A stretch of 64,000 bases of DNA from Alphaproteobacteria bacterium (GTDB lineage Bacteria; Pseudomonadota; Alphaproteobacteria; GCA-2731375): the NCBI GenBank assembly GCA_965232515.1, contig CBDDPY010000002.1, forward strand, positions 1,888,001 to 1,952,000, written 5' to 3'. Below are positions 6,913-20,104 of this stretch, one piece after another. The number at the start of each line of letters is the position of its first letter. Within the stretch, counting starts at the first letter, position 1. The notes beneath the pieces are model-generated. The model was given only the letters and a program-made list of their open reading frames with translations. It was not told the origin of the DNA and searched no databases. A program made the translations under genes and the position numbers.

Positions 6913-6935
6913 TCGCTTCGGCGATAAGCGACCGC

Positions 6936-9683
6936 ATGGAGATCGCTGCGGATTCCTTTCGCGAGGCGCTGAAGGCGCACCGATCCGGCGACGTCGCGGC
7001 GGCGATGGCGCTTTACCGCCGCAGCGTCGTCGACGATCCGGACAACATCGATGCCTTGTTCAACCTCGCCGTCCTGACCGCGACGGTCGGGCGCATCGAT
7101 GAGGCCAAGGTCCTCTATGAACAGGTCTTGAGCCTGCGCCCGGACGAGCCGGACACCCTGGTCAATCTCGGCAACCTGATGCAGGCCGTGGGCCGGTCGG
7201 ACGAGGCCGAGGCCTACTATCGCCGCGCGTTGCTGGTGAAACCGACGCTGGCCGCGGCCAACGTCAACCTCGGCAGCCTGCTGCTCGCTCGCGGCGACTA
7301 CGAAGCGGCCATCCAGTCGTTTCAGCAGGCGCTGGCGATCGACCCCTGCCTGCCGCTCGCCATGAACGGGATGGCGGCCGCCTTGGTACGGCTCGACCGG
7401 CATGCCGAGGCCGTTCAACCTCTGGAAACCGCCATCGCGATCGATCCAACGCTTCTCGAGCCATGGCGCAATCTCGGGCTGGTCCTGAATCACCTCGGTC
7501 GCCCCGAACAGGCGCTCGACAAACTGAGCCAAGCCGAGCAGTGCAACCCGCAGGATGGCATGACCCAGGCGTTGATCGGTGACGCCCACTATCGGCTTAG
7601 CGATCTCAAAGCCGCCATCATCCATTTCCGCCGCGCCGTCGAGCTGGCCCCGCAGACGCCTCAGTTTCTGAACAATCTCGGCATGGCGCTTAACGACAAA
7701 GGCGATCATGACGAAGCGGCCGACGTGCTGCGTCAGGCATTGCGGATCGACCGGCGACAACCGGAGGCCTGGACCAATCTCGGTAACTGCCTGGTTCAGC
7801 TTGACCGGCCCGACGAAGCCATCGACAGCTACCGGGAAGCCCTGGCGCTGGCGCCCCAGCTCGGCGTTGCCGGCTGCAATCTCGGCAACACGCTTCGCAA
7901 TACGGGCCGCCTGGCGGAAGCCGCGGTGGCGTTTGAGCAGGCGATTGAGCATTCGCCCGGTCTCGCCATGGCCTATAACGGATTGGCGCTGGTCCGGCAG
8001 CAGGAAAACCAGAACGAACAGGCGGTCGAACTGCTGCGCAAGGCGGTGGAGATCAGGCCCGACTATCCCGAAGCGCTGAACAATCTCGCGATCTCCCTCG
8101 GCCACCTCAACCGCTTGCCCGAGGCCGTCGACGTGTACCAGCGTCTGTTGGACGTCAAACCGGACCTGCCGGAGGCGCTGTTCAATCTGGCCTCGCTGCT
8201 GCAGTCTTTGGGCCGGCACGACGAGGCGATCATGGCGTTGCGGCATTGCCTCGCCCTGCGGCCGGACTACCGGGTGATCTACCCATATCTCGCGCACAGC
8301 CTGATGCAGCAGTGCAGCTGGACCAATCTGGACGGCATCATCGGCAAGATCCGCCACAATATGGAGGCCGAGCTGGCCGAGGGGGTCGGCCTGTCGATCC
8401 CCGCGTTCGCCCTGCAGAGCCTGCCTGGGGAATTCCCCATGGAACTACGGCAGCGGGCGGCCGAACATATCGCCGGCCGGGCCGAGGCCGAGGTGGCCGA
8501 GACCTGTCGCCAGTTGCGTCTGGATCATCGGCGTCCGCCGGGCAGGCGCAAGTTGACGATCGGCTATGTCTCTCCGGACTTCCGGTTTCACAGCGTCGCC
8601 CTGGCGTTCCGGGGCATTCTGGAGAACCATGACCGGGACGCGTTCAATCTCATCGGCTATTCGCTGTTCAACGGCGCCGAGGACGACCTGACGCGGGAGT
8701 TCGAGCAGACTTTCGACGGCTTTCGGCGGATCACCGACACGCCCTACCGCGAAACGGCCGAGCTGATCGACCGCGACCGGGTCGACATCCTGATCGATCT
8801 TGCCGGCCACACCCTTGGCTCGCGACTGCCGATTTTCGCACTCCGCGCGGCCCCGCTGCAGGCACACTATCTCGGCTACTCCGCGACCGTCGGCGCCAAA
8901 TTCCTCGACTACCTCATTACCGATCATGCGCAAGTGCCGCCGGAAAACCGGCAATACTTCACCGAGCAGTTGGTCTATCTGCCGGACACGTTCATGGCGA
9001 CGCAGCGGGCGCCGGTCGCCGTCCACCGGCCAAGCCGGCACGATTGCGGCCTGCCCGAGGACGGCATCGTGTTCGCCAACTTCAATTCTCACTACAAGTT
9101 CGACCCGCACCTGTTCGCGATCTGGATGCGCCTGCTGCGACAGTCGCCCGGCAGCGTTCTTTGGCTACTGGCGGGAACGCCGGGCTGCGTCGCCAACCTG
9201 CAGCGCGAAGCCGCCGCGCGGAACGTCGATCCGGCACGGCTGGTGTTCGCGCCGAAGATCACCCATCCGGAGCACCTGGCCCGGCTGCCGTTGGCCGACC
9301 TGGCGCTCGACAATCTCTATCACGGCGGCGGCGTAACCACCGTCGATGCGCTGTGGACCGGCGTGCCGGTGCTGACAATCGCCTCGCAGACGCCACAGTC
9401 GCGCAACGGCGCCACCCTGATCACCGCCATTGGGCTCGCGGACCTGATCGTCCACAGCGTTGACGACTATGAACGCCTTGCCCTGAAAATCGCCGGCGAC
9501 CCGGCTCTGCGCCAATCGCTGCGGGACCGGCTGGTCGCCAATCGGGACAGCTATCCGCTGTTCCGGCCCAAACGTCTGACACGGCATCTGGAGCAGGGCT
9601 ATCGGCTGATGTGGCGCAATCATGTCGACGGCCGGCCGCCGGCCATGATCGACGTCCCGGCGCTGCCGGAAGAACCGACCTGA
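6936..9683 (+). CDS. TPR-repeat O-GlcNAc-transferase/SPINDLY-like (GT41) protein glycosyltransferase
   Basis: About 13 TPR repeats ('ALFNLA', 'NLGN', 'NNLG') followed by 'GYVSPDFRFHSVA', 'DILIDLAGHT', 'YLGYSAT', 'NFNSHYKFDP' and 'TTVDALWTGVPVLT'. Confidence 0.9.
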   Translation: MEIAADSFREALKAHRSGDVAAAMALYRRSVVDDPDNIDALFNLAVLTATVGRIDEAKVLYEQVLSLRPDEPDTLVNLGNLMQAVGRSDEAEAYYRRALLVKPTLAAANVNLGSLLLARGDYEAAIQSFQQALAIDPCLPLAMNGMAAALVRLDRHAEAVQPLETAIAIDPTLLEPWRNLGLVLNHLGRPEQALDKLSQAEQCNPQDGMTQALIGDAHYRLSDLKAAIIHFRRAVELAPQTPQFLNNLGMALNDKGDHDEAADVLRQALRIDRRQPEAWTNLGNCLVQLDRPDEAIDSYREALALAPQLGVAGCNLGNTLRNTGRLAEAAVAFEQAIEHSPGLAMAYNGLALVRQQENQNEQAVELLRKAVEIRPDYPEALNNLAISLGHLNRLPEAVDVYQRLLDVKPDLPEALFNLASLLQSLGRHDEAIMALRHCLALRPDYRVIYPYLAHSLMQQCSWTNLDGIIGKIRHNMEAELAEGVGLSIPAFALQSLPGEFPMELRQRAAEHIAGRAEAEVAETCRQLRLDHRRPPGRRKLTIGYVSPDFRFHSVALAFRGILENHDRDAFNLIGYSLFNGAEDDLTREFEQTFDGFRRITDTPYRETAELIDRDRVDILIDLAGHTLGSRLPIFALRAAPLQAHYLGYSATVGAKFLDYLITDHAQVPPENRQYFTEQLVYLPDTFMATQRAPVAVHRPSRHDCGLPEDGIVFANFNSHYKFDPHLFAIWMRLLRQSPGSVLWLLAGTPGCVANLQREAAARNVDPARLVFAPKITHPEHLARLPLADLALDNLYHGGGVTTVDALWTGVPVLTIASQTPQSRNGATLITAIGLADLIVHSVDDYERLALKIAGDPALRQSLRDRLVANRDSYPLFRPKRLTRHLEQGYRLMWRNHVDGRPPAMIDVPALPEEPT

Positions 9684-9702
9684 AGGGTTCCCTTCGGTCC
9701 GC

Positions 9703-10557
9703 CTAACGCAGGACCGCGGCGATATCCCGAATGACGTCGTCGAAGGCCGGCTGGCCGATCCCGAAACGCTCGACTTCAACCGACATGTCCAGCGTGGTGT
9801 TCGGCGACAGTGCCGTCGGATCAAGGCCGGACCGGCAGGGCGCGATGAAATCGGGGTCGGCCGACAAATGTCGCGCCAGACACGTCGCCAGGTCGACATA
9901 GCTGTGATCGGCCGCGCCCGAGCATTGATAGATCCCGACGGCGCGAGCCCGCAGCAGATGTGTGATCAAGGTGCAGACCAGATCGAGTGAAATCGGCGCC
10001 AGATACATGTCCGTGAACGGCGCGACCTGCGTTCCGGCGCGCAACGCCGTGGCCCAGTCGTTCAGCAGCGGCAGGGACGGCGCCAGCACCTTGCTCAGCC
10101 GCAGCACCCCGACGTCGCCGGCCAGGGCCAGAATGCCGGCCTCCGCCGCCACCTTCTGTTCGCCATATCGGGTCAGCGGACAGACCGGCTCATCCCGCCG
10201 GCGCTGGGAAATCTGTCCGTCGAAGACCTTGTCGCTCGACAGATGCAGCACATAGGCTCCCTGCCCGACCAGCGCCGCGGCGATGCCGACGATGCCGTCG
10301 ACATTCACGCGCCGCGAACCGGCCGGGTCCCGGTCGCAGTCCGCCAGCCGCGCAACCCCGGCGCACAGAACCGCGGCGTCGACCCGGGGCAGCGCCGGCA
10401 GCGAGTCGGCCGCCGCCGCGACATCCAGGAACAGCGGGCCGTCGCGCCGACGCGTGGTCGCCACGACCTCGACCCCCAAGGCCGTCAAATGCCGCGTCAG
10501 TCCGGCGCCGACCAGGCCGTCGCCGCCGACCACCAATATGCGGCCGGTTGGCGTCAC
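9703..10557 (-). CDS. RmlD-like NDP-4-keto-sugar reductase (extended SDR)
   Basis: 'ILVVGGDGLVG', 'LSSDKVFDG' and 'YGEQK' (YxxxK). The GTG start at 10557 overlaps the upstream TGA. Confidence 0.82.
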   Translation of the reverse strand: MTPTGRILVVGGDGLVGAGLTRHLTALGVEVVATTRRRDGPLFLDVAAAADSLPALPRVDAAVLCAGVARLADCDRDPAGSRRVNVDGIVGIAAALVGQGAYVLHLSSDKVFDGQISQRRRDEPVCPLTRYGEQKVAAEAGILALAGDVGVLRLSKVLAPSLPLLNDWATALRAGTQVAPFTDMYLAPISLDLVCTLITHLLRARAVGIYQCSGAADHSYVDLATCLARHLSADPDFIAPCRSGLDPTALSPNTTLDMSVEVERFGIGQPAFDDVIRDIAAVLR

Positions 10558-11234
10558 GGCATCCGTTTGCCGCAACAGAGCGCCAGGTAATAGTGCGCCA
10601 TCGGCCAGTAGCCGGTATGCACGACCTCGTCGTTCATCGAGAAGATGAAGACGTGGTGAAAGAATTCCCGCATCAGCGCCTTCAGGTCGGGTGCGTGCTT
10701 GCAATTGACGTGGCCGGCCTTGCTCTGCGGCGAGGCATAGGCCTGGCTGTTGAGCGACGGCATGCCGACGATCAGTTCGCCCTCGTGTGTGAGCGATTGG
10801 ACGATATTGCCGACGAACCGCCGTTCGTCCTCGGCCGCGATATGCTCCAGCACGTCCAGGCTGTAGGCCGCATCGAAGGTCCCGGAATAGGGTCCCGTCA
10901 GCATGTCGTGCACATCGGCCGTCAGCGGCCAGTCCGGCGCCATGCGCGCCTTGATGTCGTCCACGAAAATCGGATCGATGTCCAGCACGGTCAGGTCGCC
11001 GACGTCCTGCTTGACGATGCGGCTGCCGAAAGCGTCGCCGCAACCGACTTCCAGCGCCCGCCCACGTCCGGCGAACATCTTGGCCACGAATTTGTAGCGC
11101 GCCAGCAGAAACGCGAGACGTTTCGGGTCGTCGTGCCAGACCTGATTGGTCATCAGGCCGAGCTGAGCGACGCCGCTACGTTCGGCCACCGCCAGACAAT
11201 CCTCGTACTGCGCTTCCTTCGTGCGTGCGCTCAT
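10554..11234 (-). CDS. Class I SAM-dependent methyltransferase
   Basis: 'ALEVGCGDAFG', 'FDAAYSLDVLEHI' and 'GELIVGMP'. ATG at 11234 with a GGAGAGG RBS. Confidence 0.88.
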   Translation of the reverse strand: MSARTKEAQYEDCLAVAERSGVAQLGLMTNQVWHDDPKRLAFLLARYKFVAKMFAGRGRALEVGCGDAFGSRIVKQDVGDLTVLDIDPIFVDDIKARMAPDWPLTADVHDMLTGPYSGTFDAAYSLDVLEHIAAEDERRFVGNIVQSLTHEGELIVGMPSLNSQAYASPQSKAGHVNCKHAPDLKALMREFFHHVFIFSMNDEVVHTGYWPMAHYYLALCCGKRMP

Positions 11235-11257
11235 ATGACCTCTCCGCGGACTTGGCC

Positions 11258-11920
11258 TTACTCGAAATAGATGCAGCCGTAGTCGCCGTCGTAACCGGCC
11301 TGGGCGAAGGCGAACTCCCACTCCGCCGGCATCAGGAAGGCGCGACAGGTGAGCTGCCAGTACAGCAGGTTCGCCTTCTCGCGCTCGTCGCGGTAGGACT
11401 CGATCGTGACATGTTTCGGCCCACGGCCGACCCGTTGAATTTCGCTGAGCGCCGCGTGCAGATCGAAGTTGCGCAAGTTGTGCAGCGTGTTGATCGAATA
11501 GACGAAGTCGAAGCTGTCGTCGGCCCAGGGCAAGCGATTGGCGTCACCCACGGCGAGGCAATGCCGGACCTCCGCCTTGGCATTGGCGATCGCATAGCCC
11601 GAAACATCGATACCGGCCACCGCGACCCCCGGCAGGACCTGCGTGAACTCATAGAGCAGAAAACCCTTGCCGCAACCGACATCCAGGATCCGCGAGTCAG
11701 GGGTCAGGCCGTAGTGCTCGACCATCGCCTCGGCCACCGGCCGCCAGCGGCCGTCGTAGCGGTAGCCACCGAAGCCGTATTTGCGGTCGCCGTCCCAGTA
11801 ATCGGCGTCGAATCTGACAGCGACCTCGGCACACGCGGCCTTGTCGTGCTCGATGACCCGTTGCACGTAGTCGCGTTTGGTGGCCGTGTGCACGGCCCCG
11901 ATGAAATCGATATAGCTCAT
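11258..11920 (-). CDS. Class I SAM-dependent methyltransferase
   Basis: 'YWDGDRKYGFGGYRYDGRW', 'ILDVGCGKGFL' and 'FDFVYSINTLHNL'. Confidence 0.9.
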   Translation of the reverse strand: MSYIDFIGAVHTATKRDYVQRVIEHDKAACAEVAVRFDADYWDGDRKYGFGGYRYDGRWRPVAEAMVEHYGLTPDSRILDVGCGKGFLLYEFTQVLPGVAVAGIDVSGYAIANAKAEVRHCLAVGDANRLPWADDSFDFVYSINTLHNLRNFDLHAALSEIQRVGRGPKHVTIESYRDEREKANLLYWQLTCRAFLMPAEWEFAFAQAGYDGDYGCIYFE

Positions 11921-11923
11921 GGC

Positions 11924-12328
11924 TCAACCCGGCACGGACGAGGTGGCGGCAAAGCGGTCGACCATGAAGACGTCTTCCAACCGGGCGACGTCCTCAAGCG
12001 AGCGCACCGACAGATTCTCGAGCGCGCCGTGCAGTTCGGCGCCGGCCGCAAGCACCCGCTCGTAGACGCCGCGGCGGGGTTCCGGCCGCTGCGGCAGCAT
12101 GAACAGGCTGAAGCAGATCACGCCCTCGATCGACTCGATCTCGTCCAGCACCGTCTGCAGGTTCATGTAGCAGCCCGCCATGGCGTATTCGGTGGCGCTC
12201 AACAGGTAATGCAGGCCGTTGCGCTGGGCGTAGTCGCGGACCACCAGGTTCTGCACGTGCTGCGGCCATGTCTGGCCGCGCACGGGACGGCTGGCGATAT
12301 AGCCGCGATAGCCGACGCGGTTACTCAT
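11924..12328 (-). CDS. 'Sporadic carbohydrate cluster' protein, LIC12192-like family
   Basis: 'GYRGYIASRP...PQHVQNLVVRDYA...LLSATEYAM' recalled as this family. Adjacent to its usual 2OG-Fe(II) partner. Confidence 0.78.
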   Translation of the reverse strand: MSNRVGYRGYIASRPVRGQTWPQHVQNLVVRDYAQRNGLHYLLSATEYAMAGCYMNLQTVLDEIESIEGVICFSLFMLPQRPEPRRGVYERVLAAGAELHGALENLSVRSLEDVARLEDVFMVDRFAATSSVPG

Positions 12329-13148
12329 CGAAGGACTCCGGCATTCGGTAGGACATGCCGATCCGCGTCGCCGCGCGAACCGTGATCGGCTCGAAGAACT
12401 CGCCCAGGCGCTTCTGTGCGTAAGGCGAGAACAGGCTCTTGAAGCGGCAGTTCATCGACCAGCGCGTTTCGTACTCGCGATTGATCCGGTTGCCGTGCAT
12501 CAGATTCTGGCTGAACAGCAGGACCGAGCCGTAGGGCACGTCGAGCCACTCGAGATCGGGCTCGATGGCGGCAAACAGGTCGTCCGTGCTCTTGCCGTCG
12601 AAGTCGCGCCAGCGCGCCTCGTGCGCGTGTTGCTTGTCGGGCGGCAGGATGAACATGCTCTTGGTGCCATGGCAGTCGACCAGCGGCAGCCAGACCACGA
12701 CCTCGAACGGCGAGTCGCCGTCCCAGACATCGGCATGCACGGCCAGCAGCGAGCTGTCGTCGCCCGGCATCTGGATCGACAGGTTCAGCCGCCGCTGCAT
12801 GGCCAGCTCGTTGCCGACCAGACGCTCCAGGCCCGACCGCGCCAGGCTGTAATAGGCTTCCCGCGCCCAGGGCAGATCGTTGACGCCGTTGATCACCCGC
12901 AGGCGCAGGGCGTTCAGGGCGGCGGCGTCGACCTGGCCGTGGATGCCGTTCATGAAGCTGCCGGCCGACTTTGGAACCGGCTGATCCAGATGCTCGGCCG
13001 CGATCGCCGCCATGGCGTCACGCAACCGGCCGAGCGCGACCTGATCGTCGACCGGCCGGATCACATAGCCCTGTTCGATGAACGCGCGGCCGAGGTTGGC
13101 CGTATCGTCGTCGAGGAAGCCCTGGGTCTGTTCCTGTACCGCGATCAC
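12321..13148 (-). CDS. 'Sporadic carbohydrate cluster' 2OG-Fe(II) oxygenase
   Basis: 'GNELAMQRRLNLSIQMP', HxD ('HAD'), distal His ('LMHGN') and 'RWSMNCRFK'. Confidence 0.82.
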   Translation of the reverse strand: MIAVQEQTQGFLDDDTANLGRAFIEQGYVIRPVDDQVALGRLRDAMAAIAAEHLDQPVPKSAGSFMNGIHGQVDAAALNALRLRVINGVNDLPWAREAYYSLARSGLERLVGNELAMQRRLNLSIQMPGDDSSLLAVHADVWDGDSPFEVVVWLPLVDCHGTKSMFILPPDKQHAHEARWRDFDGKSTDDLFAAIEPDLEWLDVPYGSVLLFSQNLMHGNRINREYETRWSMNCRFKSLFSPYAQKRLGEFFEPITVRAATRIGMSYRMPESFDE

Positions 13149-14089
13149 GCCGCCCTCTTCGCCCTATCGGCCACGAATACACCCACCCGCTCGGCGATCT
13201 GCGCCGGCTGCAGGCCGTAGTACTCCAGCAGGTCGTCCTGGCTGCCGTACTTGTCGGGAAAACGGTCGGGGATACCGAGGCGGAGCATGGCCGGCGTCCG
13301 GCCCGGCATGCGCTCCAGCAGCAAGTCCGCGATGGCGCTGCCGAGGCCCCCGACGACGGTGTGTTCCTCAATCGTCACCACGGCGTCCGCCGGCTCGGCG
13401 GCGGCCAGCACCGCGGCCTCGTCCAGCGGCTTCACCGTATGCAGATGGATCAGACCGCAATCGATGCCTTGTCCGGCCAGCAGCTCGGCCGCGTGCAGCG
13501 CGCGGGTGGTCGTTACGCCGGTGCCGATCAGCAGCACCCGGCCGCCGGGCCGCATGGTGATCGCCTTGCCGATCGCGGTCTCGGCGTCATCGCTCGACAC
13601 GATCTCGTCGCCCCCCTTGGCAAGGCGGATGTAGCACGGCCCTTGCAAATCCGCCGTCTGCGGCACCAGGCGCCGCATCTCGTCGGCGTCGCACGGCGCC
13701 AGCACGGTCATGCGCGGCAACGCCCGCATGATAGCGATATCCTCGATCGCGAGATGCGTCGGCCCCAGCGGCGCGTAGACCGTGCCGCCGCCATTGGCGA
13801 TCAACCGCACCGGCAGGTCGTGCATGCACAGGTCGACCGCGACCTGCTCGTAGCAGCGGCGGGTAATGAAGGTGGCGATCGTGTTGACGTAGGGAATGTA
13901 GCCATCCATCGCCAGGCCGGCCGCCATGCCGATGATGTTCTGCTCCGACACGCCCTCCATAAAGAAGCGTTCGGGCATCTCCTCGCGGAACTGGTCCAGC
14001 GTGCCGACGCCCAGGTCGGAGCCGATGAAGACCACGCGCGGATTGTGCTTGGCCAGTTCGTACACCATGTCCAGACAGGTCTTGCGCAT
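13145..14089 (-). CDS. Transketolase-like enzyme, C-terminal (pyrimidine-binding) subunit
   Basis: 'GSDLG', 'FFMEGVSEQNIIGMAAGLA', 'GPTHLAIED' and 'EEHTVVGGLGS'. Confidence 0.92.
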   Translation of the reverse strand: MRKTCLDMVYELAKHNPRVVFIGSDLGVGTLDQFREEMPERFFMEGVSEQNIIGMAAGLAMDGYIPYVNTIATFITRRCYEQVAVDLCMHDLPVRLIANGGGTVYAPLGPTHLAIEDIAIMRALPRMTVLAPCDADEMRRLVPQTADLQGPCYIRLAKGGDEIVSSDDAETAIGKAITMRPGGRVLLIGTGVTTTRALHAAELLAGQGIDCGLIHLHTVKPLDEAAVLAAAEPADAVVTIEEHTVVGGLGSAIADLLLERMPGRTPAMLRLGIPDRFPDKYGSQDDLLEYYGLQPAQIAERVGVFVADRAKRAA

Positions 14090-14092
14090 GGA

Positions 14093-14953
14093 TCAGGCCT
14101 CGATCGCGTCGAGCATCTGCTCGATATCGCCGTCGCTGATTTTCGATTTGTGGTGATAGGCCATGTTGTTCTCGGCGTAGCCCACGCCCCTGCCCTTGAT
14201 CGTGTGGCAGATCACGGCGTTCGGTTTGTCCGGCACGAAGGGCAGATCGACGAAGGCGCGTCGCAGACCGTCGACGCTGTGACCGTCGACGTCGCGGACG
14301 GTAAAGCCGAAACTTGTCCACTTGTCGCGCAGCGGTTCCAGGTCCTGCACCGTGGCGGTGCTGGCGTAGGACTGATGCTTGTTGTAGTCGACGATCACCG
14401 TGTAGTTGCCGAGGCCGTGCTTGCCGGCCGCCATGGCCGCTTCCCAGACCGAGCCCTCGTTGATCTCGCCGTCGCCGGTGATCACGAACACCCGGCTGTT
14501 GCGGCCGGCGAGCCGCGCCGCCAGCGCGAGGCCGACCCCGATCGACGGCCCATGGCCGAGCGCGCCGGTCGAGGCCTCGACGCCCGGGATCTTGCCGGCC
14601 TCGGGATGCCCGCCCAGGATGCCGTCGAAACGGCAGAAGCGATCCAGCTCGTCAGCCGGGAAGAAGCCCTTGTCGGCAAGCACGGCGTAGAGCGCGAGGC
14701 AGCCATGCCCCTTCGACAGGATGCAGCGATCCCGGTCCGGCCAGTCGGGCCGTGCCGGATCGATATGCAGGATGTCGTCATAAAGCACCCGCAGGATCTC
14801 GATCGCCGAGAGCGCCGAGCCCAGATGGCCGCGGCCGCCGCCGGCAAGGCCGCGCACAACCAATCGTCGCAGGTCGCGACTTCGGCGGTCGAGAACGGCC
14901 GGCTCGTAGACCCGATGCGCGCTCTGCGTCAGCTTCGCGAGATTAAGCGTCAT
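14093..14953 (-). CDS. Transketolase-like enzyme, N-terminal (TPP-binding) subunit
   Basis: 'GHLGSALS', 'DRCILSKGH', 'STGALGHG' and the TPP motif 'GDGEINEGSVWEA...DYN'. Confidence 0.92.
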   Translation of the reverse strand: MTLNLAKLTQSAHRVYEPAVLDRRSRDLRRLVVRGLAGGGRGHLGSALSAIEILRVLYDDILHIDPARPDWPDRDRCILSKGHGCLALYAVLADKGFFPADELDRFCRFDGILGGHPEAGKIPGVEASTGALGHGPSIGVGLALAARLAGRNSRVFVITGDGEINEGSVWEAAMAAGKHGLGNYTVIVDYNKHQSYASTATVQDLEPLRDKWTSFGFTVRDVDGHSVDGLRRAFVDLPFVPDKPNAVICHTIKGRGVGYAENNMAYHHKSKISDGDIEQMLDAIEA

Positions 14954-15962
14954 TCGGTAGACCCCCGTTCTTCCGCCGTGCCAGCGACAGCATCGCTTCT
15001 GCCTTGGCTAACTGCCGGTCGAGCGCCGCCGCGTGGCCGGCCTTACCGGCGAACGCGCGCCGGGCCCAACGCTCCGGCAGAAACTCGTTCAATAGGATCA
15101 GGCACCAGCGCAGGGCGAACAGTGGATAGACCTGGCGCAGCCGTTGCTCGAAGGCCGGATCGCCGGCGAAGATCTCGGCTGCGCCGCGGTGGAAGCGGCG
15201 TTTCAGCTCATCGCTCAATGCCATGCCAGGATGCAGCAGGAAGTCGGACACCAGCTTCGCCGGATCGTCCCAGCCGAAATACTCGAAGTCGAGAAACACC
15301 AACCGGCCGTCCGCGGTGCGCAGCGCGTTGTGCAGCCCGAAATCCGACGGCGACAGCGTTCGCTGCGTCTGAGCCAGCTCGGCCTCGATATCGACATCGT
15401 CCGGCGTTGCCTCGGCCAAGGCGGCATCGAAGCCGTCGGCCAGGAAGCTTTGCACGCGCGTATCCTCCACGGCCGCCAGACGCCGCCGCCGTCGGGCGAT
15501 CTGCCGCAGGCAGTCGCCGATGGAGAGGCACGCCTCGGAGGCAAGCGGCAGGCGATCGGCGCCCGGCACCGTCGCCAGCGCTTTCAGCCGCGCCATGAAG
15601 TCGAGCGCGGCGTCGACGTCGGCGACGCCGGGCGTCGACACCGGTTGACCGTCGACCCATTCGTAAAGCGCGACGCTGCGATCGCGGTCGACCGCCACGC
15701 GCCGCGGCACGTCGCGAACGCCTTGCAGCCACAGGAAACGCAGGCCACCGAACTCCGCGCCCAGACGGTCACGCTCGTCGATCCGGTCGTTCAGGTATTC
15801 CTTCAGGGCGTAGCGGCGGCCGCCCAGGTCCTCGACCTGGTAGATACGGTTGTTGCCGCCGCCGCCGACACGCTCGACGGCGTAGACGGCGTCGTCGAGC
15901 AGGCGAGCCGCAATGTCGCGCAGATCATCGGTGTCTGCGTCAGTGGACGGAGCCAAGGACAT
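14943..15962 (-). CDS. Aminoglycoside-phosphotransferase/choline-kinase-fold kinase
   Basis: 'GGGGNNRIY', 'YALKEY', 'SPSDFGLHN' and 'FLDFEYFGWDDP'. Confidence 0.82.
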   Translation of the reverse strand: MSLAPSTDADTDDLRDIAARLLDDAVYAVERVGGGGNNRIYQVEDLGGRRYALKEYLNDRIDERDRLGAEFGGLRFLWLQGVRDVPRRVAVDRDRSVALYEWVDGQPVSTPGVADVDAALDFMARLKALATVPGADRLPLASEACLSIGDCLRQIARRRRRLAAVEDTRVQSFLADGFDAALAEATPDDVDIEAELAQTQRTLSPSDFGLHNALRTADGRLVFLDFEYFGWDDPAKLVSDFLLHPGMALSDELKRRFHRGAAEIFAGDPAFEQRLRQVYPLFALRWCLILLNEFLPERWARRAFAGKAGHAAALDRQLAKAEAMLSLARRKNGGLPNDA

Positions 15963-16557
15963 GATCGGTTATCTCGTTCCAATTGCTGAAGCGCGTCAGG
16001 CCGCATTCGGCCGACTGCGCGTGTGGGTCGAACAGAAGCCGCGCGACCTCGGCAGGAAAGCCGGGGTCGGCGAAGACTTCCCTAAGGTCGTCGATGAAGT
16101 GCGTGCAGCCGAGGCCGCCGATCCGGGCGATCTTCTCGGCCCGGCAGTCCTCGAAAAAGACCTGGGTCTCGTTCAGGCCCAGACCGTCGATGTCGAAGAA
16201 ACGGTGCGCGTCCATCCAGGCAAGCGCGGCTTCCCGCAGATCGACATTTCCGTCGTCCAGGCTGGCGAAACGGGTCTTGTGGCTGACGATGTAAACATCG
16301 ATGCCGTCGGCGCGGCAGCGGCGGAAGAACGCGTCGGCGCCGTCGAACATCTCGGCCTCGGCCATGTGCGGGCCATAGGCCAACGCCTGTAGGCGCTGCC
16401 AGTCCAGATCGCCGTCGGGGCGTTGGCGCAACCGATCGCGCACCGCCCGCTTGCCGCCGGCCGGAACGGCGTCCAGATAGCCGCATGCCACCGCCAACCG
16501 GCCGAAAACCCGGTCATAGCCCGCGATTGTGTTGTCGAAATCCACGCCCAGGCGCAT
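15940..16557 (-). CDS. HAD-superfamily hydrolase/phosphatase
   Basis: Motif I 'GVDFDNT', motif II 'IVSHK' and motif IV 'FIDDL'. Confidence 0.82.
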   Translation of the reverse strand: MRLGVDFDNTIAGYDRVFGRLAVACGYLDAVPAGGKRAVRDRLRQRPDGDLDWQRLQALAYGPHMAEAEMFDGADAFFRRCRADGIDVYIVSHKTRFASLDDGNVDLREAALAWMDAHRFFDIDGLGLNETQVFFEDCRAEKIARIGGLGCTHFIDDLREVFADPGFPAEVARLLFDPHAQSAECGLTRFSNWNEITDHVLGSVH

Positions 16558-16614
16558 GGCGGCGATGCTCTGCTTCCAACGTCGTTTACCCGATAGAAAC
16601 TACGCCCAACGCCA

Positions 16615-16629
16615 TTAACAAATTGTTAT
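16615..16629. promoter_or_regulatory. Imperfect CtrA box in the internal gap of the sugar cluster
   Basis: TTAA-CAAATTG-TTAT (one mismatch) plus another TTAA at 16632, in an AT-rich patch upstream of the HAD gene. Confidence 0.45.
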
Positions 16630-16693
16630 CATTAAGAAATTCTTGCCGCGTCGGGACTGATTCCCGGCCGCCGAAACGCCTCCCGCTCGCGCC

Positions 16694-17698
16694 CTAGTGC
16701 AGGTCGAGCGACTGCATGCGTTTGACGTTGTAGTAGACCTCGCCCGTCATCGGGTCGGGCACGCGGCCGGCCGCGAAGGCATCACGCAGGCTCTGCACCG
16801 CGTCCGCGATGCTATGCCGCGGCACGAATCCGAGCTCATCGGCAATCTTCTGCGAGTTCACGCGGTACGAACGGTGATCGTCGGTCGGCGTTGTCACGAT
16901 CTCGACCGCCTGGCCAACGTTGTCGCGCACCATCTCGGCCAGCTCCATCACGGCGTGGTTCTCGTAGCCGGCGTTGAAGACCTTGCCGTCGATCGCGGCG
17001 TCCGGATACTGCAGGCACTGGACATAGAGGTCGGTCATGTCCTCGACATTGATGTTCGGCCGCTGCTGCCCGCCGCCGAACACTGTGATCCGGCCGTTGT
17101 TGATGGCGTGGTTGGTCAGGATGTTGACCGTCAGGTCCAGCCGCAGCCGCGGCGCGTAGCCGCAGACCGTCGCCGGCCGCAGCGTCAGGGCGGTGAAGCC
17201 GGGCTCGCGTTCGGCCTCCAGCACCTCCTCGCACATCGCCTTGAACTTGGAATAGTCGGTCAACGGCTCCAGCGACAATTCCTCGGTGACGTCGGCCTCG
17301 TCCTTGATGCCGTAAACGCTGGACGACGACGCGTAGATGAAGCGTTTGACGCCCGCGTCCTTCGCCGCCTTCACCATGGGCCGGAAGGCCTCGAAGTTGA
17401 TTGACCGACCGAGGTCCGGATCGAGCTCGAAGCTCGGATCGTTGGAAATGCACGCGAGATGGATCACCGCGTCGCAGCCCGTGAGCGCGTTCCGTACGGC
17501 GGCGATGTCGCGGATGTCGCCCCGGACCTTGCGCAGTTTCGGATGCGCGTCGCAACCGTTGAACACGTCGGTGCCATAGATGAAGAGATCGAGCACCGTG
17601 ACCTCATGGCCGGCATCGAGCAGTTTCGGCACCAGGCAGCTGCCGACATAGCCGGCGCCGCCGGTCACCATCACGCGCCAGTGCTTGTGTTCGGACAT
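16694..17698 (-). CDS. NAD-dependent nucleotide-sugar epimerase/dehydratase
   Basis: 'VTGGAGYVG', 'IHLACISNDP', 'ASSSSVYG', 'YSKFK' and 'LRPATVCG'. The ATG at 17698 overlaps the gmhA stop. Confidence 0.9.
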   Translation of the reverse strand: MSEHKHWRVMVTGGAGYVGSCLVPKLLDAGHEVTVLDLFIYGTDVFNGCDAHPKLRKVRGDIRDIAAVRNALTGCDAVIHLACISNDPSFELDPDLGRSINFEAFRPMVKAAKDAGVKRFIYASSSSVYGIKDEADVTEELSLEPLTDYSKFKAMCEEVLEAEREPGFTALTLRPATVCGYAPRLRLDLTVNILTNHAINNGRITVFGGGQQRPNINVEDMTDLYVQCLQYPDAAIDGKVFNAGYENHAVMELAEMVRDNVGQAVEIVTTPTDDHRSYRVNSQKIADELGFVPRHSIADAVQSLRDAFAAGRVPDPMTGEVYYNVKRMQSLDLH

Positions 17699-18306
17699 CA
17701 CGCCGCGCCTTTCCTGCTCCACAATCCCGCGTCCGCCGTCCAGCCCATGGCGATATCAAGGATCGCGTGGCAGACGATCTGGTGCATCAGCTCGACAAAG
17801 CCGTATTCCTCGGACGGTACATAGAAGTTCAAATCGCCCAGCCGGCGCAGCTTGTTGTCCGGGCCGAAGCCGCTCAGGCCGATGACGGTGCAACCGGCCT
17901 CGCGCGCCGCGCTGACGCCGTTGACGATGTCGGCCGAGTTGCCCGAACTGGAGATCGCGAACAGCACATCGCCCGGACGGCCGTGCAGCTCGATCTGCTG
18001 GGCGAAAATCTGATCGAAGCCAAAGTCGTTGCCCAGGCAGGTCAACGCCGCGCCATCGTTGAAGACCAACGCCGGGATGCCGCCGTTCTTGGCAAAGTCA
18101 TTCGCCATATGGCTGGCGATCGCGGCGCTGCCGCCATTGCCGATGAACATCAGCTTGTGCCCCCGACCGGCCGCCTCCTGCGTCAGCTCGATGGCGGCGT
18201 CGATAAAGCCCGCCATCGGCAGCCGGTCGCCCTCGCGGTCGGTGCTGACGGAACGGTCCGGCAGCTCGGCCAGGATGCGGAAATAGCTCTCCACGTCACT
18301 CTGCAT
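17698..18306 (-). CDS. gmhA: SIS-domain phosphosugar isomerase, GmhA (phosphoheptose isomerase)-like
   Basis: 'FIGNGGSAAIASH', 'TCLGNDFGFDQIFAQQ', 'GDVLFAISSSGNS' and 'ELMHQIVCH'. Confidence 0.85.
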   Translation of the reverse strand: MQSDVESYFRILAELPDRSVSTDREGDRLPMAGFIDAAIELTQEAAGRGHKLMFIGNGGSAAIASHMANDFAKNGGIPALVFNDGAALTCLGNDFGFDQIFAQQIELHGRPGDVLFAISSSGNSADIVNGVSAAREAGCTVIGLSGFGPDNKLRRLGDLNFYVPSEEYGFVELMHQIVCHAILDIAMGWTADAGLWSRKGAA

Positions 18307-18314
18307 CTACGGCA

Positions 18315-19895
18315 TCACTTCAGCAGCGCGGTCAGGAACTTCATCAGCGGCACCTTCGCCACCGACTCGCGATGGCCGACGATGCCGACCTTCATGGCGC
18401 CGACGGCGTTGCCGATCAGTCCCGCGACCGGCATGTCGGTGCCGTTGGCGACCAGCGGCGCGGTGACGCTCAGGAAGGCATCGCCGGCGCCGACGGTGTC
18501 GACCACCTGCCGCGTGAACGCCGGCACCTTGTGCAAACCGGTCTCCAGGTCGAAGGTCAGGCAGCCGTTCTGGCCATGGGTGACGACGATGCGGTCGCAG
18601 TCGATCTGCTCGCGTAGCGGCCCTTGGACCAGACGGCCGAGATCGGTGAAACGGTCGCGCACCGCCAGCCGCGCCTCGGGCGCGTCGATACAGACATAGT
18701 CGGCGCGGCGATAGCGCGTCACCGGGTTATAGCCCAGGTTGGCGCTGTTGCTCTGCGCGTTGACGGCCAGGAACGGCGCCGCGTCGACGACCACGTCGAC
18801 CGCCCGCGGCGTCATCATGCCGTGGCCGAAATCGTTCACGATGGTCAGATCGAATTCGTGCGCCAGGTCGCCGATCTGCTGGCATAGCGTGTCTTCCTGG
18901 GCGCCCGACAGCGGCGTGTCGTCGAAGTGGTAGACCTCGAACAGCTTGCGCATATGGCCGGGATCGACGAACCGGCATTTCCGGATCGTCGGCACACCCG
19001 GCAGGCGCAGGAAATGCAACTGCACGTTGTCGCGCACCGAATCCCGGATGAGGTCCTCGTGGCTGTCGTCATCGCCGATGCAGGTGACGACGTCGACCTG
19101 CTCGACGAAGTCGGCGATATGGTTGGCCGAGGCGATCACGCCGCCGGCGAACATCTCCCGCCCCTCGTACCGGGTGGCGATGATGTTCTCCTTGGCCGAT
19201 TTGCCCATCGGCGCGGTGTACTGGTATTCGTCGACGATGGCCTCGCCGACCATCAGCACCCGCTTGTCGGCCAGCGCCTCGATCGCCGCCAGCGCCTTCG
19301 CCTGACCGCCGCTGTCGCGCATGCGGGCGAGGTACTCGGCGACTTCCGAGTCGTAGACGTTCAGATGCCGGTTGATCAGCGCCGAGGACGAAAAGGTGAT
19401 GTCGTCGGTAAAGACGATGCGGCCGCCCAACCCCTCGACCAGCTCACGCTCGCGGCGGATGTTGCCGGTGACGTCCTCGGTCTCGTCGGCGTAGTCCTGG
19501 CCCTTGATATAGACATCCGGCGCGACCATGCGCAGGACACCCTCGGCCGTGGGCCAGTTGCTGACGCCGACCCAGTCGACATATTCCAGCGCCGCCAACA
19601 TCTCCGCCCGCATGTCCTGGGCGAATACCGGCCGGCCCGGCCCCTTGTTCACGTAACGGTCCGCCGTCAGCGTGACGAACAGCAGATCGCCCTCCGCACG
19701 CGCGGCTTCCAAATGGCGGACATGGCCCATATGCAACAAATCGAAAACACCGTGGGCCAGGACAACGGTCTGGCCGCGCTGCCGGGAGTGCTTGGCAATC
19801 GCGGCCATCTCCTCGATCGTTCTGACTTTGTCCCGCGCGCGCACGGGCAACGGATCGAGCGATGCGAGGTTGGCCTGAACTCCTGATTGCACCAT
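18315..19895 (-). CDS. Bifunctional nucleotidyltransferase + PfkB kinase (HldE/RfaE-like, reversed domain order)
   Basis: N-terminal 'HGVFDLLHMGH' (HxGH), 'KGPGRP' and 'YIKGQDY'; C-terminal PfkB motif 'DTVGAGDAF'. Confidence 0.88.
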   Translation of the reverse strand: MVQSGVQANLASLDPLPVRARDKVRTIEEMAAIAKHSRQRGQTVVLAHGVFDLLHMGHVRHLEAARAEGDLLFVTLTADRYVNKGPGRPVFAQDMRAEMLAALEYVDWVGVSNWPTAEGVLRMVAPDVYIKGQDYADETEDVTGNIRRERELVEGLGGRIVFTDDITFSSSALINRHLNVYDSEVAEYLARMRDSGGQAKALAAIEALADKRVLMVGEAIVDEYQYTAPMGKSAKENIIATRYEGREMFAGGVIASANHIADFVEQVDVVTCIGDDDSHEDLIRDSVRDNVQLHFLRLPGVPTIRKCRFVDPGHMRKLFEVYHFDDTPLSGAQEDTLCQQIGDLAHEFDLTIVNDFGHGMMTPRAVDVVVDAAPFLAVNAQSNSANLGYNPVTRYRRADYVCIDAPEARLAVRDRFTDLGRLVQGPLREQIDCDRIVVTHGQNGCLTFDLETGLHKVPAFTRQVVDTVGAGDAFLSVTAPLVANGTDMPVAGLIGNAVGAMKVGIVGHRESVAKVPLMKFLTALLK

Positions 19896-20104
19896 GTCCC
19901 ACTCTCCCTGACGCGCGACGGCGCCGGCGTTGGGCACGACTGTGGCGGGACGGGTCTTAATAACGGGTAAAATGCCGCTAAATCCCACGCCAATTTTTCA
20001 ATCCGCGTTAACCATGTCCTTGCACCGGACGTTAACGGCGTGCCGCCAGGATGGGCCACCGAAAAGGCCAACCGCGGCAAGGAACAGATTGGATTTCCGG
20101 GGTC

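What the first reader, a model, noticed from the sequence alone, without database searches (positions are those of the whole stretch)
6936..19895. Candidate new flagellin glycosylation system: OGT/SPINDLY-type transferase plus unusual higher-carbon sugar pathway
Seen: a TPR-GT41 gene divergent from flagellin 3 and convergent with 11 co-oriented genes. These encode a nucleotidyltransferase-kinase, GmhA, an epimerase/dehydratase, a HAD, an APH kinase, a split transketolase, a 2OG-Fe oxygenase with its LIC12192-like partner, two methyltransferases and an RmlD-like reductase. The block is bracketed by flagellar genes, and the window has no Wzx/Wzy/Wzm, other GT or Pse/Leg synthase. Established: known flagellin GTs are Maf, FlmG and GT2 types, and the product of the 'sporadic carbohydrate cluster' is, to my knowledge, undefined. 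In the GT, the OGT 'GHTT' motif reads 'GVTT' while the catalytic Lys ('HYK') is retained. Inference: a methylated, oxidised heptose-derived or C2-extended NDP-sugar is transferred to flagellin Ser/Thr.
Basis: partly seen in the sequence, partly recalled or inferred. Interest (0 to 1): 0.82.

Follow-up and report, generated by a model that had tools for sequence, protein, structure and literature searches.

The report
Flagellin sugar island with OGT-like transferase
Next to its flagellin genes this alphaproteobacterium carries an O-GlcNAc-transferase-like enzyme and a twelve-gene operon for an unknown heptose-type sugar, an arrangement kept in distant relatives that most likely sugar-coats the flagellar filament but has never been tested.

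Summary
A 915-aa TPR-GT41 gene (6936-9683, +) lies divergent from flagellin 3/FlbT/FlaF. It is convergent with 12 co-oriented genes (9703-19988, -). These encode an HldE-like nucleotidyltransferase-kinase with swapped domains, a GmhA-like isomerase, an SDR, a HAD-like and an APH-like protein, a split transketolase, the TIGR04324 oxygenase with its TIGR04323 partner, two methyltransferases and an RmlD-like reductase.

Not confirmed: the block is not bracketed by flagellar genes. The right flank is an SBBP propeller protein, a kinase and an enolase.

The flagellin link is well supported by synteny. In alphaproteobacterial MAGs with GT41 at 37-87% identity, flagellin lies on one side in 7 of 8 loci and the cassette on the other in 10 of 11. 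Catalytic residues are invariant. None of 27 flagellin-adjacent GT41s has the OGT histidine.

The cassette is modular: most of the other 24 loci examined lack GT41 or flagellin nearby.

The novelty needs qualifying. GT41 genes in enterobacterial flagellin islands were predicted in 2016, FlmG already has the TPR plus GT-B design, and this scan has met similar loci on other DNA. No paper found tests a GT41 on flagellin or assigns the cassette's product.

Verdict: a new variant of a known kind. Sugar and acceptor remain unproven.

The parts
643..1086 (-). FlaF (flagellin synthesis and secretion regulator)
   Evidence: PF07309, E 1.4e-34
1160..1975 (-). Flagellin 1 (271 aa). An identical copy lies elsewhere in the genome.
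   Evidence: Flagellin_N and Flagellin_C. 100% identical copy at C2:1183034-1183846.
2335..3150 (-). Flagellin 2 (271 aa)
   Evidence: Flagellin_N and Flagellin_C. A sigma54-type TGGCAC-N5-TTGC site lies at 3224-3238.
3401..4921 (-). PKMT-like methyltransferase set among the flagellin genes (side observation)
   Evidence: Methyltransf_12, MethyTransf_Reg and PKMT_2nd. Kept at the same place in L006 at 74% identity.
5052..5390 (-). Second FlaF paralogue
   Evidence: tblastn, 64% identity to FlaF
5377..5775 (-). FlbT (flagellin translational repressor)
   Evidence: PF07378, E 1.8e-45; NF001995 at 158.8 bits against a cut-off of 125
5823..6635 (-). Flagellin 3 (270 aa), divergent from the GT41 gene
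   Evidence: Flagellin_N and Flagellin_C. Perfect TGGCA-N6-TTGC site at 6710-6724 on the minus strand.
6936..9683 (+). TPR-GT41 glycosyltransferase. Residues 1 to ~470 are TPR repeats; ~480-915 is an OGT/SPINDLY-type catalytic domain.
   Evidence: PF13844, E 2.9e-72. Human OGT E 3e-65, XcOGT E 2e-56, SPINDLY E 1e-50. H552, S553, N717, K721 and T801 are invariant in 13 orthologues.
9703..10557 (-). RmlD-like NDP-sugar reductase (GTG start overlapping the stop of the methyltransferase gene)
   Evidence: RmlD_sub_bind, E 1.4e-25; TIGR01214 at 88.8 bits, below its cut-off of 224
10554..11321 (-). SAM methyltransferase 1. The true start is probably near 11237.
   Evidence: Methyltransf_11. Homologues align over about 228-258 of 255 residues.
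11258..11920 (-). SAM methyltransferase 2
   Evidence: Methyltransf_25 and Methyltransf_11. 55-79% identical in most cassette loci (43-47% in two).
11924..12328 (-). LIC12192-family small protein, overlapping the oxygenase gene by 8 nt
   Evidence: TIGR04323, E 8.4e-42. Model pLDDT 91 with an alpha/beta fold like serine-recombinase catalytic domains, E 2e-4.
12321..13148 (-). Fe(II)/2-oxoglutarate oxygenase of the 'sporadic carbohydrate cluster'
   Evidence: TIGR04324, E 1e-92. H138, D140 and H218 are invariant in 25 sequences. PhyH-like fold.
13145..14089 (-). Split transketolase, C-terminal half (pyrimidine-binding and C domains)
   Evidence: Pfam. Closest solved relative is chain 6yaj, E 8e-61. 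Cassette-specific Gly and Lys at two pocket positions.
14093..14953 (-). Split transketolase, N-terminal half (ThDP-binding)
   Evidence: Transketolase_N, E 1.1e-41
14943..15962 (-). APH/choline-kinase-like kinase (weak support)
   Evidence: No Pfam or NCBIfam hit. APH(4)-Ia at E 0.008. Motifs seen in the sequence. Kept in the cassette at 37-50% identity.
15940..16557 (-). HAD-like hydrolase (assigned by motif only)
   Evidence: N-terminal DFDNT. No family hit. Kept in the cassette.
16694..17722 (-). SDR epimerase/dehydratase
   Evidence: Epimerase, E 4.5e-39. GalE, LegB and HldD models all score below their cut-offs.
17698..18306 (-). GmhA-like sugar-phosphate isomerase
   Evidence: SIS_2. 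TIGR00441 at 104.5 bits, below its cut-off of 209.
18315..19988 (-). Nucleotidyltransferase + PfkB kinase fusion (HldE-like with the domain order reversed). An alternative ATG start lies at 19895.
   Evidence: CTP_transf_like at residues 78-204 and PfkB at 243-541. HldE model at 170.6 bits, below its cut-off of 521. Start codons read.

Best explanation
This is a flagellin O-glycosylation island.

Module A comprises the split transketolase, APH-like kinase, HAD-like phosphatase, GmhA-like isomerase, nucleotidyltransferase-PfkB kinase and SDR. It builds a nucleotide-activated seven-carbon (or two-carbon-extended) sugar from a ketose phosphate, following the logic of the ADP-heptose route.

Module B comprises the Fe/2OG oxygenase with its small LIC12192-family partner, two SAM methyltransferases and an RmlD-like reductase. 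It oxidises, methylates and reduces that sugar.

The soluble TPR-GT41 enzyme then transfers it in the cytoplasm to Ser/Thr of the ~270-aa flagellins before export. The TPR arm would select flagellin, as in FlmG and OGT.

Shown: gene content, conserved synteny and conserved catalytic residues.
Inferred: the acceptor, the order of the steps and the identity of the sugar.
For: Synteny around the GT41 gene (one search found 13 MAG loci, GT41 at 37-87% identity):
- Flagellin/FlbT/FlaF lie upstream in 7 of the 8 loci that have an upstream flank.
- Cassette genes lie downstream in 10 of the 11 loci that have a downstream flank.
- The exception in both counts is L012.

An independent approach from the oxygenase:
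- TIGR04324 scores over its cut-off in 25 of 401 sampled alphaproteobacterial genomes.
- Of the 24 loci in other genomes, 7 carry GT41 beside the cassette, and 6 of those also carry flagellin.

Co-occurrence, counted by hand from the tables:
- 16 of 25 cassette-positive genomes have a GT41 match at E <= 1e-60.
- 41 of 376 cassette-negative genomes have one.
- Relatives are not independent, so this overstates the link.

Other GT41 loci:
- 8 of 20 further GT41 loci lie beside flagellin/FlbT/FlaF, often as tandem GT41 arrays.
- The genome's second GT41 (887 aa) sits next to FlgK/FlgL, with FlgD, FliF and FliG a few kb further upstream.

Catalytic competence:
- PF13844 at 244 bits; human OGT at E 3e-65.
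- H552, S553, N717, K721 and T801 are invariant in 13 orthologues.
- Lys is kept in 47 of 47 GT41 domains.

The donor is probably not UDP-GlcNAc. The OGT His920 position holds V, I, A or L in 27 of 27 flagellin-adjacent GT41s. It holds His in only 4 of the 20 others.

The two modules belong together. All 5 genomes with only module B beside GT41 hold module A elsewhere, with NT-PfkB at 63-67% and TktN at 64-72% identity.

No Maf was found in this genome, which is 96% complete. No other GT and no glycan flippase or polymerase was found among the window ORFs scanned.

Precedent: a cyanobacterial TPR-GT41 is needed for pilin glycosylation (10.1101/2021.07.06.449578, passages).
Against: - No experimental datum on this or any orthologous locus was found.
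- The cassette occurs without GT41 or flagellin within about 10 kb in 14 of 24 loci, so the sugar may serve other acceptors.
- 12 of 20 further GT41 loci are not near flagellin.
- An earlier scan note ties a GT41 pair in another genome to a giant repeat protein, not to flagellin (unchecked).
- In one genome of the same family (G188) the cassette and the GT41-flagellin locus lie on different contigs.
- GmhA, HldE and RmlD models all score well below their equivalog cut-offs, so the heptose assignment rests on analogy.
- The sigma54-type sites lie upstream of the flagellins but not of GT41.
- The genome has three NeuB-family genes elsewhere, one near the other flagellar cluster, so flagellin could instead or also carry a nonulosonic acid.
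Confidence: 0.6

Rival explanations
1. The cassette makes a sugar for LPS, capsule or another glycan. The GT41 beside flagellin uses a common donor (UDP-GlcNAc, GDP-fucose or the like). The adjacency reflects an island of surface-modification genes, not one pathway.
For: - 14 of 24 cassette loci lack GT41 and flagellin nearby.
- The family was named after a gene of Leptospira, LIC12192 (NCBIfam description).
- In G188 the two parts lie on different contigs.
- GT41s beside flagellin often occur without the cassette: 16 of the 27 flagellin-adjacent genes.
Against: - No GT other than GT41 and no Wzx/Wzy/ABC exporter lie in or beside the cassette here.
- None appeared among the flanks of the 10 non-flagellar and flagellar loci that I scanned, apart from one GT2 in L058.
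- The convergent GT41-RmlD junction is kept from 87% down to 37% GT41 identity.
- The OGT His that goes with UDP-GlcNAc use is absent.
Confidence: 0.17
2. The GT41 glycosylates another protein or many cytoplasmic proteins. One candidate is the 937-aa SBBP propeller protein encoded divergently from the operon. Flagellin is then only a neighbour.
For: - An SBBP homologue (45% identity) lies beside the operon start in L054 as well.
- Bacterial GT41s with other targets exist: pilin in Synechococcus and multiple proteins in Yersinia (abstract in the listing).
- An earlier scan note ties GT41 pairs to a giant repeat protein (unchecked).
Against: - The flagellin/FlbT/FlaF neighbourhood is the feature that recurs: 7 of 8 loci and 8 of 20.
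- The SBBP gene was seen in only one other locus that had enough flank.
- The SBBP protein shows no signal peptide-like start and no flagellar family in its ends.
Confidence: 0.1
3. The GT41 protein is mainly a regulator or chaperone-like partner in flagellin synthesis (with FlbT/FlaF) and not an active transferase.
For: - It lies next to flbT/flaF.
- Earlier scan notes describe flagellum-linked OGT-like proteins that lack donor-binding residues and partner with Maf in other genomes (unchecked).
- Listeria GmaR is both a flagellin GT and an anti-repressor (title and abstract in the listing).
Against: - The catalytic Lys, the phosphate-binding Asn and Thr, and the His-Ser pair are invariant.
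- There is no Maf in this genome for it to partner with.
- A complete sugar pathway lies next door.
Confidence: 0.05

Closest known systems
FlmG, flagellin O-glycosyltransferase of Caulobacter crescentus and Brevundimonas subvibrioides (PMC7591256; 10.1101/2022.03.25.485807; 10.1101/2023.12.03.569772; passages read)
   Same: - A soluble cytoplasmic enzyme of an alphaproteobacterium.
- An N-terminal TPR domain (shown to bind flagellin in FlmG) followed by a C-terminal GT-B domain.
- It would act on ~270-aa flagellins; here the gene also lies beside flaF and flbT.
- The donor sugar is made by dedicated genes.
   Different: - FlmG has 596 aa, with the TPR domain within the first 313. That leaves about 283 aa, too few for the ~436-aa GT41 catalytic region found here.
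- FlmG transfers pseudaminic or legionaminic acid. No NeuB lies in this window.
- FlmG is described as confined to Caulobacterales.
- I could not obtain the FlmG sequence, so homology of the GT domains is untested.
- Earlier scan notes (unchecked) call FlmG relatives GT9-like.
- The Caulobacter control genome matches both PF13844 and PF01075, which settles nothing.
GT41 family: human OGT, Xanthomonas XcOGT, Arabidopsis SPINDLY (PDB 3pe3, 2jlb, 7y4i)
   Same: - TPR array plus a bilobed catalytic domain.
- E 3e-65, 2e-56 and 1e-50.
- The catalytic Lys is kept (OGT K842, SPY K665).
- The N-x3-K and T-T phosphate-binding elements are kept.
- The His before the acceptor site is kept (OGT H498, SPY H495).
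   Different: - His920 of OGT is Val here.
- The His-Ser pair resembles SPY H495-S496 more than the OGT His-Pro. This is a motif-level inference from PMC9715652 (passages); the SPY alignment was not printed.
- The presumed donor is a cassette-made sugar, not UDP-GlcNAc or GDP-fucose.
- The presumed acceptor is flagellin.
GT41/SPINDLY-domain genes in enterobacterial flagellin glycosylation islands (De Maayer and Cowan 2016, PMC4875605; passages read)
   Same: A GT41 (COG3914) gene inside a flagellin-linked sugar island, predicted to be the flagellin transferase, with methyltransferase activity associated.
   Different: - Those are gammaproteobacterial and mostly fused to a methyltransferase domain.
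- They sit with other sugar pathways.
- They were predicted to add GlcNAc derivatives.
- None was tested, and none is linked to the TIGR04323/TIGR04324 cassette in the passages I read.
Synechococcus elongatus Ogt (Synpcc7942_0051), a TPR-GT41 needed for pilin glycosylation (10.1101/2021.07.06.449578; passages read)
   Same: A bacterial TPR-GT41 with the conserved Lys that modifies the subunit of a surface filament.
   Different: The target is a type IV pilin, not flagellin. The passages I read mention no dedicated sugar operon.
ADP-heptose pathway (GmhA, HldE, GmhB, HldD) and NCBIfam's 'sporadic carbohydrate cluster' (TIGR04323/TIGR04324)
   Same: - An isomerase, a PfkB kinase, a nucleotidyltransferase and a HAD-like protein give the logic of the heptose route.
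- TIGR04323 and TIGR04324 are true members, scoring above their cut-offs.
   Different: - The heptose-pathway models all score below their cut-offs, and the HldE domain order is reversed.
- A dedicated split transketolase is part of the cassette. It has Gly and Lys where the solved split transketolase has Ser and Arg and where the housekeeping enzyme of this genome has Arg.
- A second, APH-like kinase is also part of the cassette.
- The product of the cassette is undefined: no paper was found.

Membership tests
GT41 (Pfam PF13844, OGT/SPINDLY family) | Match to the family model above its curated cut-off | tested here: met
   244.1 bits against a cut-off of 25, in two stretches
GT41 (Pfam PF13844, OGT/SPINDLY family) | Homology to solved GT41 catalytic domains, with the catalytic Lys | tested here: met
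   Human OGT at E 3e-65. NFNSHYKF aligns with NFNQLYKI. K721 is invariant in 13 orthologues and Lys is kept in 47 of 47 domains.
GT41 (Pfam PF13844, OGT/SPINDLY family) | N-terminal TPR array | tested here: met
   TPR_1 at E 8.5e-77, with repeats over residues ~10-460
O-GlcNAc transferase in the strict sense (UDP-GlcNAc donor) | His of the G-H-T-T element (human OGT His920) | tested here: not met
   Val in the window protein. V, I, A or L in 27 of 27 flagellin-adjacent GT41s. That this His marks UDP-GlcNAc use is recalled, not tested.
FlmG class of flagellin glycosyltransferases | TPR N-terminal domain plus GT-B C-terminal domain in a soluble protein of an alphaproteobacterium with flagellin, flaF and flbT genes | tested here: met
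   The FlmG architecture is taken from PMC7591256.
FlmG class of flagellin glycosylation | Sequence homology of the GT domain to FlmG | not testable with these tools
   No FlmG sequence could be fetched. The length argument (about 283 aa against about 436 aa) speaks against it. The Caulobacter control matches both PF13844 and PF01075.
FlmG class of flagellin glycosyltransferases | Pse or Leg donor pathway | tested here: not met
   No NeuB family in the window. NeuB genes lie elsewhere, at C2:4.07, 4.09 and 6.71 Mb.
FlmG class of flagellin glycosyltransferases | TPR domain binds flagellin | not testable with these tools
   Needs a two-hybrid or pull-down assay.
Sporadic carbohydrate cluster (TIGR04323 + TIGR04324) | Both family models above cut-off, with the genes adjacent | tested here: met
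   142 bits against 55 and 310.2 bits against 150. The two genes overlap by 8 nt.
Sporadic carbohydrate cluster (TIGR04323 + TIGR04324) | Fe(II)/2OG facial triad H-x-D...H | tested here: met
   H138, D140 and H218 are invariant in 25 sequences. PhyH-like fold.
ADP-heptose pathway (GmhA, HldE, GmhB) | Equivalog-level matches to GmhA and HldE | tested here: not met
   TIGR00441 at 104.5 bits against 209.45. NF008454 at 170.6 bits against 521. The domain order is reversed.
ADP-heptose pathway (GmhA, HldE, GmhB) | GmhB-type HAD phosphatase | tested here: inconclusive
   Only the DFDNT motif I at the N-terminus. No family or PDB match.
Maf-type flagellin glycosylation | MAF_flag10/MptE-like domain protein | tested here: not met
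   PF01973 gave no match in the own genome at E <= 0.001, at 96% completeness

The most novel reading that the evidence does not exclude
A GT41 (OGT-fold) enzyme is the flagellin glycosyltransferase of a broad set of alphaproteobacteria. Its donor is a new nucleotide sugar whose carbon skeleton is made by a dedicated, pocket-remodelled split transketolase, giving a two-carbon-extended or terminal-deoxy heptose/octose. That sugar is then hydroxylated by a two-component Fe/2OG oxygenase and methylated twice. This would give GT41 a third donor class after UDP-GlcNAc and GDP-fucose. It would also assign the first chemistry to the 'sporadic carbohydrate cluster'.
Probability: 0.25. Interest if true: 0.8.

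Novelty: new variant of a known kind. Interest (0 to 1): 0.62.

Why it matters
Flagellin glycosylation shapes motility, phage attack and immune recognition. So far only Maf, FlmG and GT2-type enzymes have been shown to carry it out.

If the TPR-GT41 here acts on flagellin, three things follow:
- The OGT/SPINDLY fold gains a bacterial filament substrate and a new donor sugar.
- A conserved cassette found from Leptospira to marine bacteria gets its first function. That range rests on NCBIfam naming and on unchecked earlier scan notes.
- The His-to-Val/Ile/Ala change becomes a testable marker of donor specificity in GT41.

The locus is compact (13 genes plus flagellin) and could be reconstituted in a heterologous host, as was done for FlmG.

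Tried and rejected
- Complex prediction of the GT41 TPR region (residues 1-480, alignment A1) with flagellin (alignment A2) returned 'no answer', score 0.00, and no controls were run. It counts neither for nor against binding.
- FlmG homology could not be resolved.
  - The FlmG papers give no family name.
  - Leclerc 1998, Hanuszkiewicz 2014 and Scott 2011 are not held.
  - A homologue search with a 616-aa FlmG-sized GT41 from L090 returned only unnamed or MAG proteins.
  - The 630-aa TPR protein near NeuB in this genome shares only TPR similarity with the window protein, and its C-terminal 330 aa match no Pfam family.
- Whether Burkholderia FlmQ is a GT41 could not be checked: the paper held gives no domain data.
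- Sequence search of solved structures found nothing for the LIC12192-family protein or the oxygenase, and nothing convincing for the HAD-like protein.
- The fold of the LIC12192-family protein resembles serine-recombinase catalytic domains (E 2e-4, TM 0.6-0.7). This gives no functional lead.
- RNA evidence is inconclusive.
  - Contigs of two RNA-seq libraries from a 95-99% identical relative cover all 30, or 28 of 30, bins of window 1-20000 at even low depth. DNA carry-over could explain this, and no silent control stretch could be laid.
  - Two poly-A and RT-PCR raw-read runs gave no reads.
  - Expression is therefore not shown.
- The ends of the SBBP protein match no flagellar family at E <= 5. 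The protein-atlas look-up failed and was not repeated.
- Sigma54-type sites support flagellin regulation only, not regulation of GT41. The pattern with one mismatch is common: 108 matches against an expected 71.
- The careful tree search did not finish. Only the quick tree is reported.

Full report
**1. Observation**

The window has about 65% GC. I picked likely genes by third-position GC and scanned them with Pfam and NCBIfam.

The left end holds a flagellin regulon:
- FlaF (643-1086).
- Three ~270-aa flagellins (1160-1975, 2335-3150, 5823-6635).
- A PKMT-like methyltransferase (3401-4921).
- A second FlaF (5052-5390).
- FlbT (5377-5775).

Perfect or near-perfect sigma54-type sites lie upstream of the three flagellins.

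Divergent from flagellin 3 lies a 915-aa TPR + GT41 gene (6936-9683; PF13844 at 244 bits against a cut-off of 25).

Convergent with it are 12 tightly packed minus-strand genes (9703-19988):
- An RmlD-like reductase.
- Two SAM methyltransferases.
- The TIGR04323 protein and the TIGR04324 oxygenase. Both score above cut-off, and the genes overlap by 8 nt.
- The two halves of a transketolase.
- Two proteins without any family hit.
- An SDR.
- A GmhA-like isomerase.
- A cytidylyltransferase-like + PfkB fusion.

- The first has a faint match to hygromycin-B kinase (E 0.008) and kinase-like motifs.
- The second starts with the HAD motif DFDNT.

The claim that flagellar genes bracket the block fails on the right side. 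An SBBP propeller protein, an MtnK-like kinase and an enolase follow, and nothing flagellar was found up to base 64000.

**2. Is the arrangement more than chance?**

A scan of one genome per species with the GT41 catalytic domain gave 13 loci. All are alphaproteobacterial MAGs, among them a Sneathiellales and a Rhodospirillaceae bin. I laid the window's proteins on them with tblastn.
- Flagellin/FlbT/FlaF lie upstream of GT41 in 7 of the 8 loci that have an upstream flank.
- Cassette genes lie downstream, convergent, in 10 of the 11 loci that have a downstream flank.
- L012 is the exception in both counts.
- L009 and L011 are too short to count.
- GT41 identity runs from 87% down to 37%.

I then started from the oxygenase family instead.
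- TIGR04324 scores above its cut-off in 25 of 401 sampled genomes of the class, and in 0 of 14 control genomes.
- Around the 24 hits in other genomes, 7 stretches carry GT41 beside the cassette, and 6 of those also carry flagellin.
- 14 stretches carry the cassette without either.
- The rest are cut by contig ends.
- Four of these stretches are the same genomes as loci, judged by equal contig lengths.

Counting by hand:
- 16 of 25 cassette-positive genomes have a GT41 match at E <= 1e-60.
- 41 of 376 cassette-negative genomes have one.
- Relatedness inflates such a contrast.

Among 20 further GT41 loci, 8 lie beside flagellin/FlbT/FlaF, often as arrays of two to four GT41 genes.

In this genome a second TPR-GT41 (887 aa, 33% identical) sits next to FlgK/FlgL, with FlgD, FliF and FliG a few kb further upstream. 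Other sugar genes, including a NeuB-family gene, lie downstream. A third TPR-GT41 is not flagellar.

**3. The transferase**

The catalytic region (residues ~480-915) matches human OGT (E 3e-65), XcOGT (E 2e-56), SPINDLY (E 1e-50) and a Thermobaculum OGT.

In 13 syntenic orthologues H552, S553, N717, K721 and T801 are invariant. The SPINDLY structure paper names N661, K665 and T748 as GDP-phosphate ligands and H495/S496 at the acceptor (PMC9715652, passages). The window protein has the same N-x3-K, T-T and H-S elements by motif position. This is an inference, because no SPY alignment was printed.

I collected 47 GT41 domains for a motif table. Five genes from four duplicate loci and two truncated genes had been dropped first.
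- Lys is kept in 47 of 47.
- The OGT His920 position holds His in only 4, and none of those 4 is near flagellin.
- All 27 genes within 6 kb of flagellin/FlbT/FlaF have V, I, A or L there.

A quick tree places the window protein in a 33-row group that holds 24 of the 27 flagellin-adjacent rows. Its SH-aLRT support is 92, and the careful search did not finish.

The enzyme therefore looks active, belongs to a flagellum-linked GT41 subgroup, and probably does not use UDP-GlcNAc.

**4. The sugar pathway**

Gene content splits into two modules.
- Module A: NT-PfkB, GmhA-like, SDR, HAD-like, APH-like, and both transketolase halves.
- Module B: oxygenase, LIC12192-family protein, methyltransferases, and the RmlD-like reductase.

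Five genomes have only module B beside GT41. All five hold module A elsewhere, either on another contig or 14-30 kb away, with NT-PfkB at 63-67% and TktN at 64-72% identity. The modules therefore travel together.

Module A has the logic of the ADP-heptose route: isomerase, kinase, phosphatase, nucleotidyltransferase. Every heptose-pathway model nevertheless scores far below its equivalog cut-off, and the HldE domains are in reverse order. These genomes also hold a canonical-order HldE-like gene.

The transketolase:
- It is closest to the solved split transketolase of Carboxydothermus (E 8e-61).
- Where that enzyme reads DLSKST and LGRSG, the cassette enzymes read DLG[AV]GT (Gly in 17 of 18) and RLAKGG (Lys in 19 of 20).
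- The housekeeping transketolase of this genome has Arg at the second place.
- From memory, these are phosphate-binding positions (Ser385 and Arg520 of E. coli TktA). I did not test this.
- A dedicated, altered transketolase beside a housekeeping one argues for a special ketose product and against a mere sedoheptulose-7-P supply. That does not prove it.

The oxygenase has an invariant H-x-D...H triad. Its fold is PhyH-like, near EctD, FtmOx1 and the sugar-modifying HygX and AviO1, with TM-scores of about 0.5.

Its small partner folds with high confidence (pLDDT 91) into an alpha/beta domain like serine-recombinase catalytic domains. This gives no functional clue.

The likely product is a nucleotide-activated seven-carbon or C2-extended sugar that is hydroxylated, methylated once or twice, and reduced at a keto group. 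Its identity cannot be computed.

**5. Comparison with what is known**

- FlmG shares the design of a TPR arm plus a GT-B domain in a soluble protein beside flaF/flbT/flagellin. It is 596 aa with the TPR domain in the first 313, uses Pse or Leg, and is said to be confined to Caulobacterales. I could not fetch its sequence. The length argument, and unchecked earlier notes of this scan, suggest that it is not a GT41.
- GT41/SPINDLY-domain genes were predicted in 14 of 42 enterobacterial flagellin-island types in 2016 but were not tested.
- FgtA of Pseudomonas aeruginosa is a GT2.
- A cyanobacterial TPR-GT41 is needed for pilin glycosylation.
- Literature searches:
  - 'sporadic carbohydrate cluster' found nothing.
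  - flagellin + heptose + glycosylation + transketolase found nothing.
  - flagellin + 'glycosyltransferase family 41' found nothing relevant.
  - The library lacks most subscription journals.
- This scan has met flagellum-linked TPR-GT41 genes and the transketolase cassette before on other DNA. Those notes served as leads, not as evidence.

**6. Verdict**

It is a new variant of a known kind: a flagellin glycosylation island with a TPR-guided cytoplasmic GT-B enzyme.

The open points are:
- the acceptor;
- the sugar;
- whether the cassette also serves other glycans;
- how FlmG relates to GT41.

The complex prediction gave no verdict, and the RNA libraries did not show expression (see Tried and rejected).

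Noticed in passing
window 3401-4921 (-): A 506-aa methyltransferase with MethyTransf_Reg and PKMT_2nd domains (the Rickettsia protein-lysine methyltransferase type) sits between flagellin 2 and FlaF/FlbT. It is kept at the same place in L006 at 74% identity. It is a candidate flagellin lysine methyltransferase unrelated to FliB.
   Followed up: partly
own genome C2:6680001-6720000 (L001, L002): A second TPR-GT41 (L001:13647-16310, 887 aa, GGGITT motif) lies next to FlgK/FlgL, with FlgD, FliF and FliG a few kb upstream. Downstream lie SDRs, a GLF mutase, a NeuB-family gene (L002:6015-6878), an aminotransferase, a WbuC cupin, a methyltransferase, and a 630-aa TPR protein whose C-terminal 330 aa match no Pfam family (FlmG-sized).
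   Followed up: partly
window 20051-22864 (+): A 937-aa SBBP beta-propeller protein without an obvious signal peptide is divergent from the sugar operon by 62 bp. A 45% identical homologue holds the same place in L054. Its function is unknown. It could be a second glycosylation target.
   Followed up: partly
window 22934-25245 (+): An MtnK-like APH-fold kinase (TIGR01767, E 8e-17, below cut-off) is followed by a second enolase copy that is 50% identical to the one at C2:1414079. The pair is not kept beside the cassette in the other loci.
   Followed up: no
own genome C2:1183034-1183846: An exact protein-level duplicate of flagellin 1 lies 0.7 Mb from the window. A fifth flagellin, 50% identical, lies at C2:4754421-4755230.
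   Followed up: no
L079, L080, L073, L081 (G381, G261, G188, G096): Arrays of two to four diverged TPR-GT41 genes stand directly beside runs of four to eight flagellin genes. This suggests several transferases per filament, or paralogue-specific pairing.
   Followed up: partly
L053:15375-17447, L055:12416-14524, L058:7322-9460: Proteins of 690-712 aa without any Pfam match at E <= 1e-10 recur beside the cassette in loci that lack GT41 (and in L058, which has it). They are possible alternative transferases for the same sugar.
   Followed up: no
window 26220-28716 (-) and 25253-26218 (-): A circularly permuted ATP-grasp gene, an Alpha-E domain gene and a transglutaminase-like gene form a conserved-looking triad just right of the enolase.
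   Followed up: no
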